64,000 bases of DNA from Escherichia coli (lineage in GTDB: Bacteria > Pseudomonadota > Gammaproteobacteria > Enterobacterales > Enterobacteriaceae). Positions 37,901-40,900 of the stretch are shown here, in pieces (within the stretch, counting starts at the first letter, position 1; every line of letters begins with the position of its first letter). The DNA is taken from assembly GCF_030384885.1 (NCBI RefSeq), contig NZ_CP128613.1; one strand, given 5' to 3'. A program made the position numbers.

Positions 37901-40900
37901 TGCGCCTTTATGCATAATGAGAGCAAGGCACATCAAATAAAATAACGATAGGTCACAACAAAGAGGTTTTTATGAAAAAGCTTATCGTTTCAAGTGTATT
38001 GGCATTCATAACATTTTCTGCGCAGGCCGCAGCATTTCAGGTCACTAGTAATGAAATAAAAACAGGAGAGCAACTTACAACGTCTCATGTATTTTCTGGA
38101 TTTGGGTGTGAGGGGGGTAATACATCGCCCTCATTAACCTGGTCTGGTGCTCCAGAAGGCACCAAAAGCTTTGCCGTAACTGTGTATGATCCAGATGCGC
38201 CTACAGGCAGTGGATGGTGGCACTGGACGGTTGCTAATATTCCAGCAACGGTAACATATTTGCCCGCTGATGCAGGAAGACGTGATGGTACAAAACTTCC
38301 GACTGGTGCTGTCCAAGGCCGAAATGATTTTGGCTATGCAGGATTTGGTGGAGCATGTCCTCCCAAAGGAGATAAACCCCATCATTACCAGTTTAAAGTA
38401 TGGGCTCTAAAAACTGATAAGATTCCTGTAGATTCTAATTCCAGCGGAGCGTTAGTTGGTTATATGCTTAATGCCAATAAAATTGCAACCGCTGAGATAA
38501 CACCCGTTTATGAGGTAAAGTAGGATAAGAGTATGCTGGCAAAAGATAGGACTAACCTAAAGATTGAAGAAATACGGATGCATAAACATCATGAGATTCA
38601 CAGGGTTAAGCCTCTTATGCCAGCTTTATGTCGTATCCGTCAGGGAAAAAAAGTTATCAATTGGGAGACGCATAGTCTAACTGTTGATAATAATCAGATA
38701 ATATTATTTCCCTGTGGATATGAATTTTATATTGCGAATTACCCAGAAGCAGGTCTTTATCTTGCAGAAATGCTTTATTATCCCATTGATCTAATTGAAA
38801 AGTTCCAAAATCTTTATGCGATAACCGATCAAATTCGTAACACGACAGGTTTCTGCTTACCTCAGAATCCTGAGTTAATATATTGTTGGGAGCAACTAAA
38901 AACATCTATTTCCCGAGACTTCTCAACGCAAATTCAGGAACACTTAGCAATGGGCGTTCTACTTTCATTAGGAGCACATCATGTTAATTGTTTACTTTTA
39001 TCAGATAGTAAACAATCATTAATAAGTCGTTGTTATAACCTAATGCTATCCGAACCTGGAACAAAATGGACAGCAAACAAGGTAGCGAGATATCTCTACA
39101 TTTCTGTTTCCACATTGCATCGCCGTCTGGCAAGCGAGGGAGTAAGTTTTCAAAGTATATTGGACGACGTGAGGTTAAATAATGCGTTGTCTGCTATACA
39201 AACGACAGTAAAACCCATCAGCGAGATTGCCAGGGAAAATGGTTACAAGTGTCCTTCTCGTTTTACTGAAAGGTTCCATAATCGTTTTAAGATAACACCA
39301 AGAGAGCTAAGAAAAGCGTCCAGAGAGTAAAAGTATTTTATGAAGGAGCAACAGCATCGATTTTTATTTTGGAAAATAAATACGGCATACTCAACCTATT
39401 GGAGCCTGAACAATCCGGTGACTTCTGCGCTAATCGGGGACGTTTATAAGCACATATAATTGATACTATCTTCCTCCATCACAATTTCAGAAATGCACGT
39501 GTGATTTTTTTGCATCCGGCGTTTGGACTATGTGGAGTTCAAGAGTGGGAAAGTTACAAGAGGTTGAGGGGATAATTAAAGGGATGCTTATGACATTAGA
39601 TATCCGGATAGGTACGGATATCGTTGTTATTAAATCTAGTTTATACGTTAAGATGCAGCTACAGCAGAAATTACCACTGTTAATTTTTTCATCGTGAGCC
39701 CTTTTATTTGTACTATTATTTAAAAATGATGTCACTGCACTACAAATACTCATCTAATCAATGAGATTATTTCAAGATGTAAGTTTTAGTTTCTCATTTA
39801 AATTGTGAAGCAGATCCCTCCTTTTATCTGAACTGTTTCTATTGTACACAATGCATGACTATTTTGTGAACGAATATAAATTTGGTAGTCAAATTATATT
39901 AAAGGTTGTTATTTATGATTGACTCATAATTTATTTTTTTAATTTAAATAACCTAATAATAACCATGGAGATTATTTGCATGATATTTGTTTAGACTTGT
40001 TAATGTAATTGAGGTGATTTTATTTAATACGCAATATAGCGCCGCTTGATATTAGTTCTATTTTTTTTTGCGTAAGATAGATGAGACAAACTGAGACGCA
40101 TAATGGTTTGCAAGGCTCTAATACTTTGATGTTGAGGATGTGATGGGGCATGTACGTGCATAGTACAATGATGTCCATGCCGGTGTAGATAATCTCCAGG
40201 CTTATCCGGTGCGCCGTAAAACCCCGTCCTTCAGGGCGGGGATATAAGGCGCGGTTTTCCACCTGACCAGGTGTTTGCTGTTGTTCAATGTATTGGCGGA
40301 TGACGGACATTGGCGCACCTCCGCAGCTACTGGCAAAATTGCCAGGACTCCACAAAACGCCTTTGTAGTAATACCTGACTGTAATATCTGGTCGATCTCG
40401 TCGCAGTAACCTACCCGATACGCCTTTGAGGCTGTTTACCAGACTGGATATCGCCAGTTTGGGAGGATAGTTAATTAACAAATGGACGTGATCTGGTTCG
40501 CCATCCATTTCAACCAGTTCAGCTTCAAAATCAGCACATACATTTGAAAAGTAAGTGCGTAGTTTTTCTGTCGCGTCATGGTCAAAAATCTGGCGTCGGT
40601 ATTTGGTGACAAAGACCAGGTGAACATGCATCAGGAAAACACAATGCCTTCCACGCCGGATATCGGTTTCTTTTTTCACAGACCAAAGTATCATTTGACC
40701 TGTGAAACGATTACAGGCATTTAAATTCCAGTTAAGACCCGGTGGTCAACAGGAGTGTGAAATGAGGCGCTTCGCAGGCGCATGTCGTTTCGTTTTCAAT
40801 CGTGCTCTGGCGCTTCAGAATGAGAATCATAAGGCCGGTAAGAAATACATCCCTTACGGGAAAATGGCTTCCTGGCTGGTTGAGTGGAAAAATGCCACTG

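What the first reader, a model, noticed from the sequence alone, without database searches (positions are those of the whole stretch)
39331..40019. A 0.7 kb AT-rich non-coding spacer with a short ORF resembling a phosphopantetheinyl-transferase N-terminus
No convincing gene lies between the AraC regulator and the IS element. A 37-codon frame at 39584-39697 (MLMTLDIRIGTDIVVIKS...) weakly resembles the N-terminus of AcpS-type phosphopantetheinyl transferases (LGxGTDIVEI) before terminating. It may be a relic of a deleted gene that marks the former extent of the island. The match is short and could be coincidental.
Basis: inference. Interest (0 to 1): 0.2.

Follow-up and report, generated by a model that had tools for sequence, protein, structure and literature searches.

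The report
Decayed prophage scar, not a transferase
The AT-rich "spacer" after the AraC-type regulator is the wreck of a lambda-like prophage: the short ORF is the tail of a phage Q antiterminator gene, followed by the first 14 codons and the control region of a deleted phage porin gene, so it is an ordinary decay relic and has nothing to do with phosphopantetheinyl transferases.

Summary
There is no annotated gene between ybcM and the IS element, GC is 32% against 48% for the window, and the 37-codon frame at 39584-39697 exists. It is part of a 55-codon ORF that starts at 39530.

The AcpS reading does not hold. The ORF matches the last 30 residues of the DLP12 prophage antiterminator QuuD (19/30 identical, E 4e-11). 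A translated search of 50,697 phage records hits only Q genes. The AcpS match is 6 of 8 residues, and Pfam finds nothing.

The window is E. coli 2013C-4282. The spacer is a string of DLP12-like prophage pieces:
- ybcM downstream sequence with a dead ylcH
- the Q tail
- the first 41 nt of an NmpC/Lc-type porin gene on the minus strand, then about 340 bp of its AT-rich upstream region
- 158 bp found only at this locus
- IS609, which starts at 40207, not 40020

Strain MS1266 keeps the intact porin here. The window lacks 1,222 bp, which hold the ipeX-like 3' UTR and the porin body. The junction is identical in all four deletion-carrying strains examined, ST131 among them. The ORF crosses this junction only because the old Q stop codon mutated.

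So "relic of a deleted gene" is right, but the gene named is wrong. This is ordinary prophage decay of low interest.

The parts
39331..39546 (+). Sequence downstream of ybcM, homologous to the DLP12 ybcM-ylcH interval. It includes a dead ylcH relic at about 39446-39548 (start ATG changed to ATA, TGA at codon 6). It ends at the GTG that corresponds to the ybcN start codon (39545-39547).
   Evidence: Window 37830-39537 matches K-12 DLP12 L003 7752-9459 at 89.6%.
39538..39547 (.). Old deletion junction J1. The ylcH end / ybcN start codon is joined to about codon 96 of a quuD-like Q gene, so ybcN, ninE, ybcO, rusA, ylcG and most of Q are missing. MS1266 shares this junction.
   Evidence: DLP12 homology jumps from L003 9459 to L003 11242 between window 39537 and 39547. 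Alignment A1 shows it, and the MS1266 sequence is identical here.
39545..39643 (+). Relic of the 3' end of a phage Q antiterminator gene (GKLQEVEGIIKGMLMTLDIRIGTDIVVIKSS). The former stop codon at 39641-39643 is now TTA.
   Evidence: BLASTP against K-12 QuuD gives 19/30 identities, E 4e-11, ending at the QuuD C-terminus. The DNA is 82% identical to the quuD 3' end. All tblastn hits in phages lie in Q genes, the best at 6e-5. MS1266 ends ...VVIKSN* and ST131 ends ...VVIKSS* at the native Q stop position.
39599..39622 (.). Inverted repeat GATATCCGGATAGGTACGGATATC inside the Q relic, forming an 8-bp stem. It encodes DIRIGTDI and is also present in K-12 quuD. On the + strand it looks like a terminator.
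   Evidence: The terminator scan found it. Folding gives -16.4 kcal/mol, z -2.6, on the + strand and -10.9 kcal/mol, z -2.4, on the - strand.
39651..39652 (.). Deletion junction J2 (ACGTTAA|GATGCAGC). It lacks 1,222 bp that are present in strain MS1266 (L005 12779-14000). The missing stretch is the ipeX-like porin 3' UTR with its terminator plus porin codons 15-360. No microhomology is visible at the junction.
   Evidence: Window 36501-39651 matches L005 9628-12778 and window 39652-40206 matches L005 14001-14556. The deleted interval is 90% and 86% identical to the DLP12 ipeX/nmpC region. The junction is identical in strains 201609, Ec-U11 and ST131.
39648..39692 (-). Stub of a phage porin gene of the NmpC/Lc/OmpD type. 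The start codon is at 39692-39690 and 41 nt of the original coding sequence survive (39692-39652). It now reads MKKLTVVISAVAAS, followed by a TAA created at the junction.
   Evidence: The translation is. The MS1266 porin begins MKKLTVAISAVAASVLMAMSAQA and matches Pfam Porin_1 at 1.3e-153. Alignment A2 with DLP12, phage 434 and PA-2 is.
39693..40030 (-). Orphaned 5' leader and upstream control region of the porin gene, 25.7% GC. It is about 80-87% identical to the region upstream of nmpC/lc in DLP12, phage 434, PA-2 and many lambdoid phages. The CAP/CRP site annotated in PA-2 maps to 39801-39821 (AATTGTGAAGCAGATCCCTCC).
   Evidence: See (A2). Promoter-like hexamers on the minus strand at 39870-39841 (10/12) are no more frequent than in shuffled sequence.
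40031..40188 (.). A 158-bp stretch of unknown origin. It is single-copy, found only at this locus in 1,554 of 5,426 E. coli genomes, with no phage match. Phage homology stops at about 40030 (junction J3).
40189..40206 (-). Native 3' flank of yedK, shared with K-12. It includes the first two bases of the original yedK stop codon, now cut off by IS609.
   Evidence: The K-12 sequence is, MS1266, and the window.
40207..41953 (.). IS609 (IS200/IS605 family), with a tnpA pseudogene on the minus strand and insQ/tnpB on the plus strand. It is inserted in the yedK stop codon and forms the true right edge of the spacer. One C is ambiguous, so the end could be 41954.
   Evidence: The empty site in MS1266 is shown. 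Other copies of the IS end are (H54-H64).

Best explanation
The 39331-40206 interval is not a primary intergenic spacer, and it is not a transferase relic. It is the internal scar of a heavily reduced DLP12-like lambdoid prophage that sits between fliE and yedK. The order is an integrase fragment, emrE, ybcL, ybcM, and then this interval.

Three successive losses explain the anatomy.

1. An older deletion, shared with strains that still carry the porin, joined the ybcN start codon to about codon 96 of the Q antiterminator gene. Only the Q tail was left.

2. A single 1,222-bp deletion without microhomology then removed the ipeX-like 3' UTR, the terminator and all but the first 14 codons of an NmpC/Lc-type porin gene on the opposite strand. 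The porin start codon and its AT-rich upstream region were left orphaned.

3. IS609 inserted at the yedK stop codon.

In this strain the Q stop codon has mutated from TGA to TTA. The Q-tail frame therefore reads on across the deletion junction and along the antisense of the porin signal-peptide codons, which gives the 37/55-codon ORF.

The homologies, junctions and their order are shown. It is inferred that the segment is functionally inert as coding sequence. At most, the orphan porin promoter may still fire, and the Q-tail hairpin may help to end ybcM transcripts.
For: The window is identified as E. coli 2013C-4282, and no feature is annotated in the interval.

Three blocks are colinear with K-12 DLP12. 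They are ybcL-ybcM-ylcH (89.6%), the quuD 3' end (82%), and the nmpC start with its upstream region (87%) (alignments).

The ORF matches QuuD at 19/30 identities with E 4e-11, reaching the QuuD C-terminus. QuuD itself matches Pfam Phage_antitermQ at 3.5e-53. All 48 tblastn hits of the ORF in 50,697 phage records lie in Q genes.

Strain MS1266 has fliE-emrE-ybcL-ybcM-porin-yedK and is colinear with the window apart from the 1,222 bp and IS609. The deleted interval is 86-90% identical to DLP12 ipeX/nmpC.

Intact phages have the order Q, porin (minus strand), holin. The porin stub translates as MKKLTVVISAVAAS*.

The junction is identical in the four deletion-carrying strains compared, including ST131. 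The Q stop is intact in MS1266 and ST131 and mutated in the window.
Against: Nothing found contradicts the relic reading. Several gaps remain.

- The 158 bp at 40031-40188 has no identified origin.
- No expression data were available, so residual activity of the orphan promoter or translation of the Q-tail mini-ORF cannot be excluded. That ORF starts at the ybcN-derived GTG, in frame, with GGAG 7 nt upstream.
- The direction of change (deletion in the window rather than insertion in MS1266) is inferred from the contiguous Q-ipeX-porin arrangement in DLP12 and free phages. It was not placed on a strain phylogeny.
- Details of ipeX (its location in the nmpC 3' UTR) rest on my recollection of Castillo-Keller et al. 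2006. That paper could not be read here.
Confidence: 0.93

Rival explanations
1. This is the first reader's reading: the 37-codon frame is the N-terminal remnant of an AcpS-type 4'-phosphopantetheinyl transferase gene that once lay in the island.
For: The ORF's IGTDIVVI resembles E. coli AcpS LGTDIVEI, with 6 of 8 residues identical.
Against: The pairwise E-value is only 0.05 over 8 residues. There is no Pfam hit at E up to 10. The same residues align with the C-terminus of QuuD at E 4e-11 with DNA-level synteny. The translated phage search hits only Q genes. The motif sits at the end of the ancestral reading frame, which stops 6-7 codons later in MS1266 and ST131. An AcpS N-terminus would need about 110 more codons. 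The ORF downstream of the motif is antisense porin sequence brought there by a deletion.
Confidence: 0.01
2. The Q-tail frame is a functional small protein. The ybcN start codon (GTG at 39545, with GGAG 7 nt upstream) is fused in frame to the last 30-odd codons of Q. It would be translated from ybcM read-through transcripts as a 32-50 aa peptide.
For: The fusion is in frame and keeps a plausible Shine-Dalgarno sequence. The Q-derived residues are nearly identical in the five strains compared.
Against: The C-terminus varies with no sign of constraint. It is ...KSN* in MS1266...KSS* in ST131, 18 extra codons in the window, and a different tail after a 20-bp duplication in Ec-U11. The strains are only about 2% diverged, so conservation of the Q-derived part carries little weight. 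An in-frame join has a one-in-three chance. The fragment covers only the last fifth of the Q domain and gives no Pfam match. Other strains carry IS1 or IS2 insertions in this spacer, or have a further deletion starting 11 bp past the junction.
Confidence: 0.03
3. The orphaned porin control region is still active. It would make a short minus-strand RNA consisting of the porin 5' leader and the 14-codon stub, running antisense through the Q relic towards ybcM. This RNA could act as an antisense regulator or as a decoy for the small RNAs that target nmpC/ompD-type messages.
For: The first 200 bp or so upstream of the porin ATG are almost identical to those of functional phage porin genes, including the CAP site annotated in PA-2. 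The nmpC mRNA is reported as a RybB target in E. coli (PMC3333887). The deletion removed the porin's own terminator.
Against: There are no expression data. Promoter-like hexamers are no more frequent than in shuffles. Nothing in the interval matches any Rfam family. The region is more diverged from MS1266 (96.8%) than the genes to its left (98.2%). It is deleted outright in ST131 and interrupted by IS1 or IS2 in other strains, which argues against selection for it.
Confidence: 0.08
4. The region is simply intergenic DNA that never held genes.
For: RefSeq annotates nothing here in any of the genomes inspected.
Against: Every block from 39331 to 40030 has a gene-bearing homologue in DLP12, in phages, or in MS1266 at the same locus.
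Confidence: 0.01

Closest known systems
The quuD-ipeX-nmpC module of the cryptic prophage DLP12 (qsr') of E. coli K-12
   Same: The pieces have the same order and orientation: ybcL-ybcM-ylcH, the Q 3' end, then the porin start and its upstream region. Nucleotide identity is 82-90%.
   Different: The copy in the window lies at fliE-yedK, not at argU. It has lost ybcN through most of Q, the whole ipeX-like 3' UTR, and the porin body. In K-12 the porin is instead interrupted by IS5. ylcH is dead here.
The lc porin locus of phage PA-2, and the porin modules of phage 434 and related lambdoid phages
   Same: The first 41 nt of the porin gene and about 340 bp upstream are 80-81% identical. The left half of the annotated CAP binding site (TGTGA) is retained.
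   Different: In phages this region is followed by holin, endolysin and spanin genes. In the window phage homology stops at about 40030 and no lysis genes remain.
The intact allele of the same island, as in strains MS1266, NGF1 and the type strain DSM 30083
   Same: The flanks are identical (fliE, emrE, ybcL, ybcM, the Q tail, the porin upstream region, yedK) at 97-98% identity.
   Different: Those strains keep a 360-aa porin and its ipeX-like 3' UTR and have no IS609. The window has the 1,222-bp deletion and IS609.
The cryptic prophage remnant PR-G (intG) next to fliE in K-12
   Same: The attachment region is the same. The window shares the fliE-proximal integrase fragment with K-12 up to 37273.
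   Different: K-12 carries yedL and yedN between this fragment and yedK. It has none of the emrE-ybcL-ybcM-Q-porin material at this site.
AcpS-type 4'-phosphopantetheinyl transferases
   Same: One 8-residue stretch matches: IGTDIVVI against LGTDIVEI.
   Different: Nothing else matches. There is no domain hit, no further alignment and no matching genomic context, and the motif lies at the C-terminal end of its ancestral frame.

Membership tests
AcpS-type 4'-phosphopantetheinyl transferase (Pfam ACPS, PF01648) | Significant match to the family profile | tested here: not met
   hmmscan of the 55-aa ORF against Pfam-A at E up to 10 returned no family.
AcpS-type 4'-phosphopantetheinyl transferase (Pfam ACPS, PF01648) | Alignment to a reference AcpS beyond the N-terminal GTDIVEI motif | tested here: not met
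   BLASTP against E. coli AcpS (sequence recalled from memory) aligns only 8 residues, 6 identical, with a pairwise E of 0.05.
AcpS-type 4'-phosphopantetheinyl transferase (Pfam ACPS, PF01648) | The motif lies at the N-terminus of a frame of about 120 codons, or of a recognisable remnant of one | tested here: not met
   In MS1266 and ST131 the frame stops 6-7 codons after the motif, at the native Q stop. In the window the extension is antisense porin sequence beyond a deletion junction.
Phage antitermination protein Q (Pfam Phage_antitermQ, PF06530; QuuD type) | Sequence homology to a bona fide Q protein | tested here: met
   The ORF has 19/30 identities with QuuD residues 98-127, E 4e-11. QuuD matches PF06530 at 3.5e-53. 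All 48 tblastn hits in phages fall in Q genes.
Phage antitermination protein Q (Pfam Phage_antitermQ, PF06530; QuuD type) | Position immediately upstream of the late-region porin/lysis module | tested here: met
   In MS1266 the Q tail is followed by the ipeX-like region and the porin, as in DLP12 and phages.
Phage antitermination protein Q (Pfam Phage_antitermQ, PF06530; QuuD type) | Complete domain of about 118 residues, as needed for a functional antiterminator | tested here: not met
   Only the last 30-32 of 127 codons remain and the fragment gives no Pfam hit. It is a gene relic, not a working family member.
Gram-negative porin (Pfam Porin_1, PF00267; NmpC/Lc/OmpD group) | Start codon, signal peptide and upstream region homologous to known phage porin genes | tested here: met
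   The stub reads MKKLTVVISAVAAS against MS1266 MKKLTVAISAVAAS. The DNA is 80-87% identical to DLP12, phage 434 and PA-2 through the ATG and about 340 bp upstream.
Gram-negative porin (Pfam Porin_1, PF00267; NmpC/Lc/OmpD group) | Beta-barrel domain present | tested here: not met
   Codons 15-360 lie in the 1,222 bp missing from the window. The frame ends with TAA after codon 14.
IpeX small RNA (nmpC/lc 3' UTR) | Sequence between the porin stop codon and its intrinsic terminator is retained | tested here: not met
   The MS1266 counterpart (L005 about 12793-12958, 90% identical to DLP12) lies wholly inside the deleted interval 12779-14000. No Rfam match was found.
IS609 (IS200/IS605 family) | The finding's right edge (40019/40020) is the IS boundary | tested here: not met
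   Comparison with the empty site puts the IS end at 40207. The ORF at 40020-40694 is tnpA reading through a lost stop codon, and PGAP marks it as a pseudogene.

The most novel reading that the evidence does not exclude
The orphaned porin promoter and 5' leader (39693 to about 39900, minus strand) may still be transcribed. The deletion removed the porin's terminator, so the RNA would carry the nmpC/ompD-type leader and 14 codons and then run antisense across the Q relic toward the 3' end of ybcM. Such an RNA could titrate porin-targeting small RNAs such as RybB, or modulate ybcM. A fifth or more of sequenced E. coli genomes carry this allele.
Probability: 0.05. Interest if true: 0.35.

Novelty: already known. 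Interest (0 to 1): 0.08.

Why it matters
It matters little beyond annotation. The result removes a false lead, since there is no transferase relic. It moves the IS609 boundary by 187 bp. It also gives unannotated DNA a precise history: a Q pseudogene, a porin stub, and a dated series of deletions in a cryptic prophage at fliE-yedK.

Two points may interest people who work on E. coli outer-membrane variation.
- One ancestral deletion that removed a prophage porin together with its ipeX-like 3' UTR is present in at least 1,071 of the 5,426 complete E. coli genomes searched, and probably about a quarter. ST131 is among them.
- Several hundred other genomes keep the intact porin at the same site.

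Tried and rejected
1. I tested whether part of the ipeX-like RNA or its terminator survives at 39585-39651, under the ORF. It does not. The ipeX counterpart and its terminator (L005 about 12793-12958) lie entirely inside the deleted interval. The hairpin at 39599-39622 belongs to the Q coding sequence.

2. An Rfam scan of 39000-42200 at E up to 1 found nothing in the spacer. The only hits were three sub-threshold ones at the IS609 right end.

3. A Pfam scan of the three longest spacer ORFs on both strands found no family.

4. I looked for a micF-like divergent small RNA upstream of the porin. There is no Rfam hit, and the conservation pattern in alignment A2 gives no support.

5. I tried to find the origin of 40031-40188. 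It is single-copy and specific to this locus in E. coli, with no phage match. A scan of 100,044 species genomes with a 32-mer returned only one contig, an E. coli fragment mis-binned as Lachnospiraceae.

6. I checked the 1,222-bp deletion junction for microhomology and saw none.

7. The promoter scan of the orphan region gave hits no more frequent than in shuffled sequence, so no promoter is claimed.

8. The IpeX paper (PMC1347279) is not held. What I say about ipeX beyond the sequence comparison is from memory.

9. Exact counts of allele classes could not be obtained, because DLP12 copies elsewhere in the genomes also match the queries. Only bounds are given.
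Full report
**Identity of the window and the locus**

The finding region is 100% identical to the chromosome of E. coli 2013C-4282 (NZ_CP027579.1). RefSeq annotates the neighbourhood in this order:
- fliF and fliE
- emrE, ybcL and ybcM (the "AraC regulator")
- an unannotated gap
- an IS200/IS605 tnpA pseudogene and insQ/tnpB (IS609)
- yedK, yedF and yedE

In K-12, emrE-ybcL-ybcM belong to the cryptic lambdoid prophage DLP12 at argU. The K-12 fliE-yedK interval instead holds an integrase fragment (PR-G), yedN and yedL. The window therefore carries a second, DLP12-like prophage remnant at fliE.

**Checking the observation**

The description is accurate.
- No gene is annotated in the gap.
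- GC is 0.321 for 39331-40019, against 0.484 for the window, with a minimum of 0.257 in 39693-40030.
- The frame MLMTLDIRIGTDIVVIKS... at 39584-39697 is there, as the downstream part of a 55-codon ORF from 39530.

The right edge is wrong. The 224-codon ORF that ends at 40020 is tnpA reading through a lost stop codon. PGAP marks it as a pseudogene, and strain 201609 has the normal 144-aa tnpA. Comparison with an uninterrupted site shows that IS609 begins at 40207. The true gap is 39331-40206, which is 876 bp.

**What the ORF is**

Alignment with K-12 shows that 39331 to about 39537 is the DLP12 sequence downstream of ybcM, including ylcH (89.6% over 37830-39537). In the window ylcH is dead: its ATG is now ATA and codon 6 is TGA.

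At 39538-39547 the homology jumps to the 3' end of quuD, the DLP12 Q antiterminator (window 39547-39645 against L003 11242-11342, 82%). The two C-termini compare as follows:

| Protein | C-terminal sequence |
|---|---|
| QuuD | ...[32 protein letters not shown] |
| Window ORF | ...VGKLQEVEGIIKGMLMTLDIRIGTDIVVIKSS... |

- BLASTP gives 19/30 identities, E 4e-11.
- QuuD matches Pfam Phage_antitermQ at 3.5e-53.
- A tblastn of the ORF against 50,697 phage records gives 48 hits, every one inside an annotated Q gene, the best at E 6e-5.

The alignment to E. coli AcpS is 8 residues long with 6 identical and a pairwise E of 0.05. Pfam finds nothing at E up to 10. The GTDIV motif lies on an inverted repeat (GATATCCG...CGGATATC, 39599-39622) that is also present in K-12 quuD. 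The AcpS reading is rejected. The frame is the last 30-32 codons of a Q gene.

**The larger missing gene**

A search with 39540-40268 showed that 39652-40206 matches, at 96.8%, a stretch lying between a porin gene and yedK in other strains. It also showed that 39652-40030 matches the flanks of prophage porin genes at about 81% in most E. coli genomes.

Strain MS1266 has fliE-emrE-ybcL-ybcM, then a 360-aa porin on the minus strand, then 513 bp, then yedK. The blocks line up as follows:

| Window | MS1266 (L005) |
|---|---|
| 36501-39651 | 9628-12778 |
| 39652-40206 | 14001-14556 |
| 41954 onward | 14556 onward |

The window therefore lacks L005 12779-14000, which is 1,222 bp, and has gained IS609.

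The missing piece is 90% identical to the DLP12 stretch from just past quuD to the nmpC 3' end, and 86% identical to nmpC itself. From memory, that DLP12 stretch is the ipeX region described by Castillo-Keller et al. 2006. Its GC-rich hairpin followed by a T-run on the minus strand is visible. The MS1266 porin matches Pfam Porin_1 at 1.3e-153.

What survives in the window is the start codon at 39692 (minus strand) and 41 nt of coding sequence. This reads MKKLTVVISAVAAS, followed by a TAA created at the junction.

Upstream of the stub, 39693-40030 is 80-87% identical to the region upstream of nmpC/lc in DLP12, phage 434 and PA-2. The CAP site annotated in the PA-2 record maps to 39801-39821 (alignment A2). 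Intact phages show the order Q, porin (minus strand), holin, endolysin.

Phage homology stops at about 40030. The stretch 40031-40188 is single-copy, occurs only at this locus in 1,554 of 5,426 genomes, and has no phage match. The stretch 40189-40206 is the native yedK 3' flank shared with K-12.

**Why the ORF is as long as it is**

- In MS1266 the Q-tail frame ends ...VVIKSN* at the position of the QuuD stop.
- In ST131 it ends ...VVIKSS*.
- In the window and in strain 201609 that stop is TTA. The frame therefore runs 8 nt to the deletion junction and then along the antisense of the porin signal-peptide codons to 39697.
- In Ec-U11 a 20-bp duplication gives yet another tail.

**History**

The junction ACGTTAA|GATGCAGC is identical in 2013C-4282, 201609, Ec-U11 and ST131, which points to one ancestral event. 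No microhomology is visible.

- The deletion allele with both flanks covers at least 80% of the finding region in 1,071 of 5,426 complete genomes.
- The allele also occurs without IS609 (H108-H111).
- ST131 has lost a further 39663-40322, together with parts of tnpB and yedK.
- Other strains carry IS1 or IS2 in the spacer.
- A spread sample suggests that a few hundred genomes keep the intact porin at this site, including the type strain DSM 30083. Exact counts could not be separated from DLP12 matches elsewhere in the genomes.

The older junction between the ybcN start and Q codon 96 is shared by MS1266 and so predates the porin loss.

**Function**

The best-supported reading is that the interval is inert as coding sequence. 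Two residual activities are possible but untested.

1. The orphan porin control region may still start minus-strand transcripts that no longer have a terminator.
2. The Q-tail hairpin, followed by GTTGTTATTA on the plus strand, may help to end ybcM transcripts.

Three observations argue against selection on the orphan region:
- it is slightly more diverged than its neighbours;
- it is lost in ST131;
- it is hit by insertion sequences in other strains.

The in-frame join of the ybcN GTG, with a GGAG 7 nt upstream, to the Q tail is noted. I consider it chance, because the peptide's C-terminus differs between strains.

**Comparison with known systems, and verdict**

All components belong to well-known entities: DLP12 quuD, ipeX and nmpC; PA-2 lc; IS609; and the PR-G site.

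- The segment fails every test for AcpS membership.
- It meets the homology and synteny tests for Q and for the porin, but fails the completeness tests. It holds relics, not family members.

The gene assignment is wrong, and the principal lost gene, a porin on the other strand, was missed. This is ordinary prophage decay, so novelty and interest are low.

Noticed in passing
window 41950-41958, with 40205-40207: IS609 is inserted inside the yedK stop codon. The IS right end supplies a Cys codon and a new TGA, so YedK ends ...QPVC (223 aa) instead of ...QPV (222 aa) as in MS1266 and K-12.
   Followed up: partly
window 40020-40694 (minus strand): IS609 tnpA has lost its stop codon. It reads out of the element through 187 bp of flanking DNA as a 224-codon ORF. 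PGAP calls it a pseudogene, while strain 201609 has the normal 144-aa gene.
   Followed up: partly
window 41783-41966 (+): Three sub-threshold Rfam hits (HgcC, RAGATH-18, sot0042; E 0.04-0.1) pile up on the 3' end of insQ/tnpB and the IS609 right-end hairpin. From general knowledge, this is where a TnpB guide RNA (omega/reRNA) would be expected. They are probably structure-driven chance matches.
   Followed up: no
window 37127-37400: An integrase-fragment relic lies next to fliE. It is shared with K-12 intG/PR-G up to 37273, after which the window diverges and DLP12-like sequence (renD end, emrE) begins at 37395. This is the left boundary of the island.
   Followed up: partly
window 37812-37830: Compared with DLP12, ylcJ and the recombinase gene ybcK are missing between emrE and ybcL. 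This is another internal deletion of the remnant.
   Followed up: no
window 14574-15797 (minus strand): The window holds a separate 407-aa porin ORF ([21 protein letters not shown]...). It is 72-74% identical at the nucleotide level to parts of the porin deleted from the fliE island.
   Followed up: no
L009 (ST131, NZ_OX637964.1) 5157-6412: In ST131 a further deletion (window 39663-40322 equivalent) fuses the spacer to tnpA. PGAP then annotates a 175-aa 'tnpA' that extends into the Q-relic region. tnpB and yedK are also truncated there.
   Followed up: partly
L006 (Ec-U11) 6041-6205; one search hits H2-H5: Other strains carry a 20-bp tandem duplication just before the deletion junction plus an IS2 insertion (Ec-U11), or an IS1 insertion inside the spacer (EC21, ET761, LA3, EC17CM7).
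   Followed up: partly
L012 (SFGN01000137.1): A 5.2-kb contig labelled 'MAG: Lachnospiraceae bacterium' is 99% identical to the E. coli MS1266-type fliE-porin-yedK locus. It is almost certainly a mis-binned E. coli contig.
   Followed up: yes
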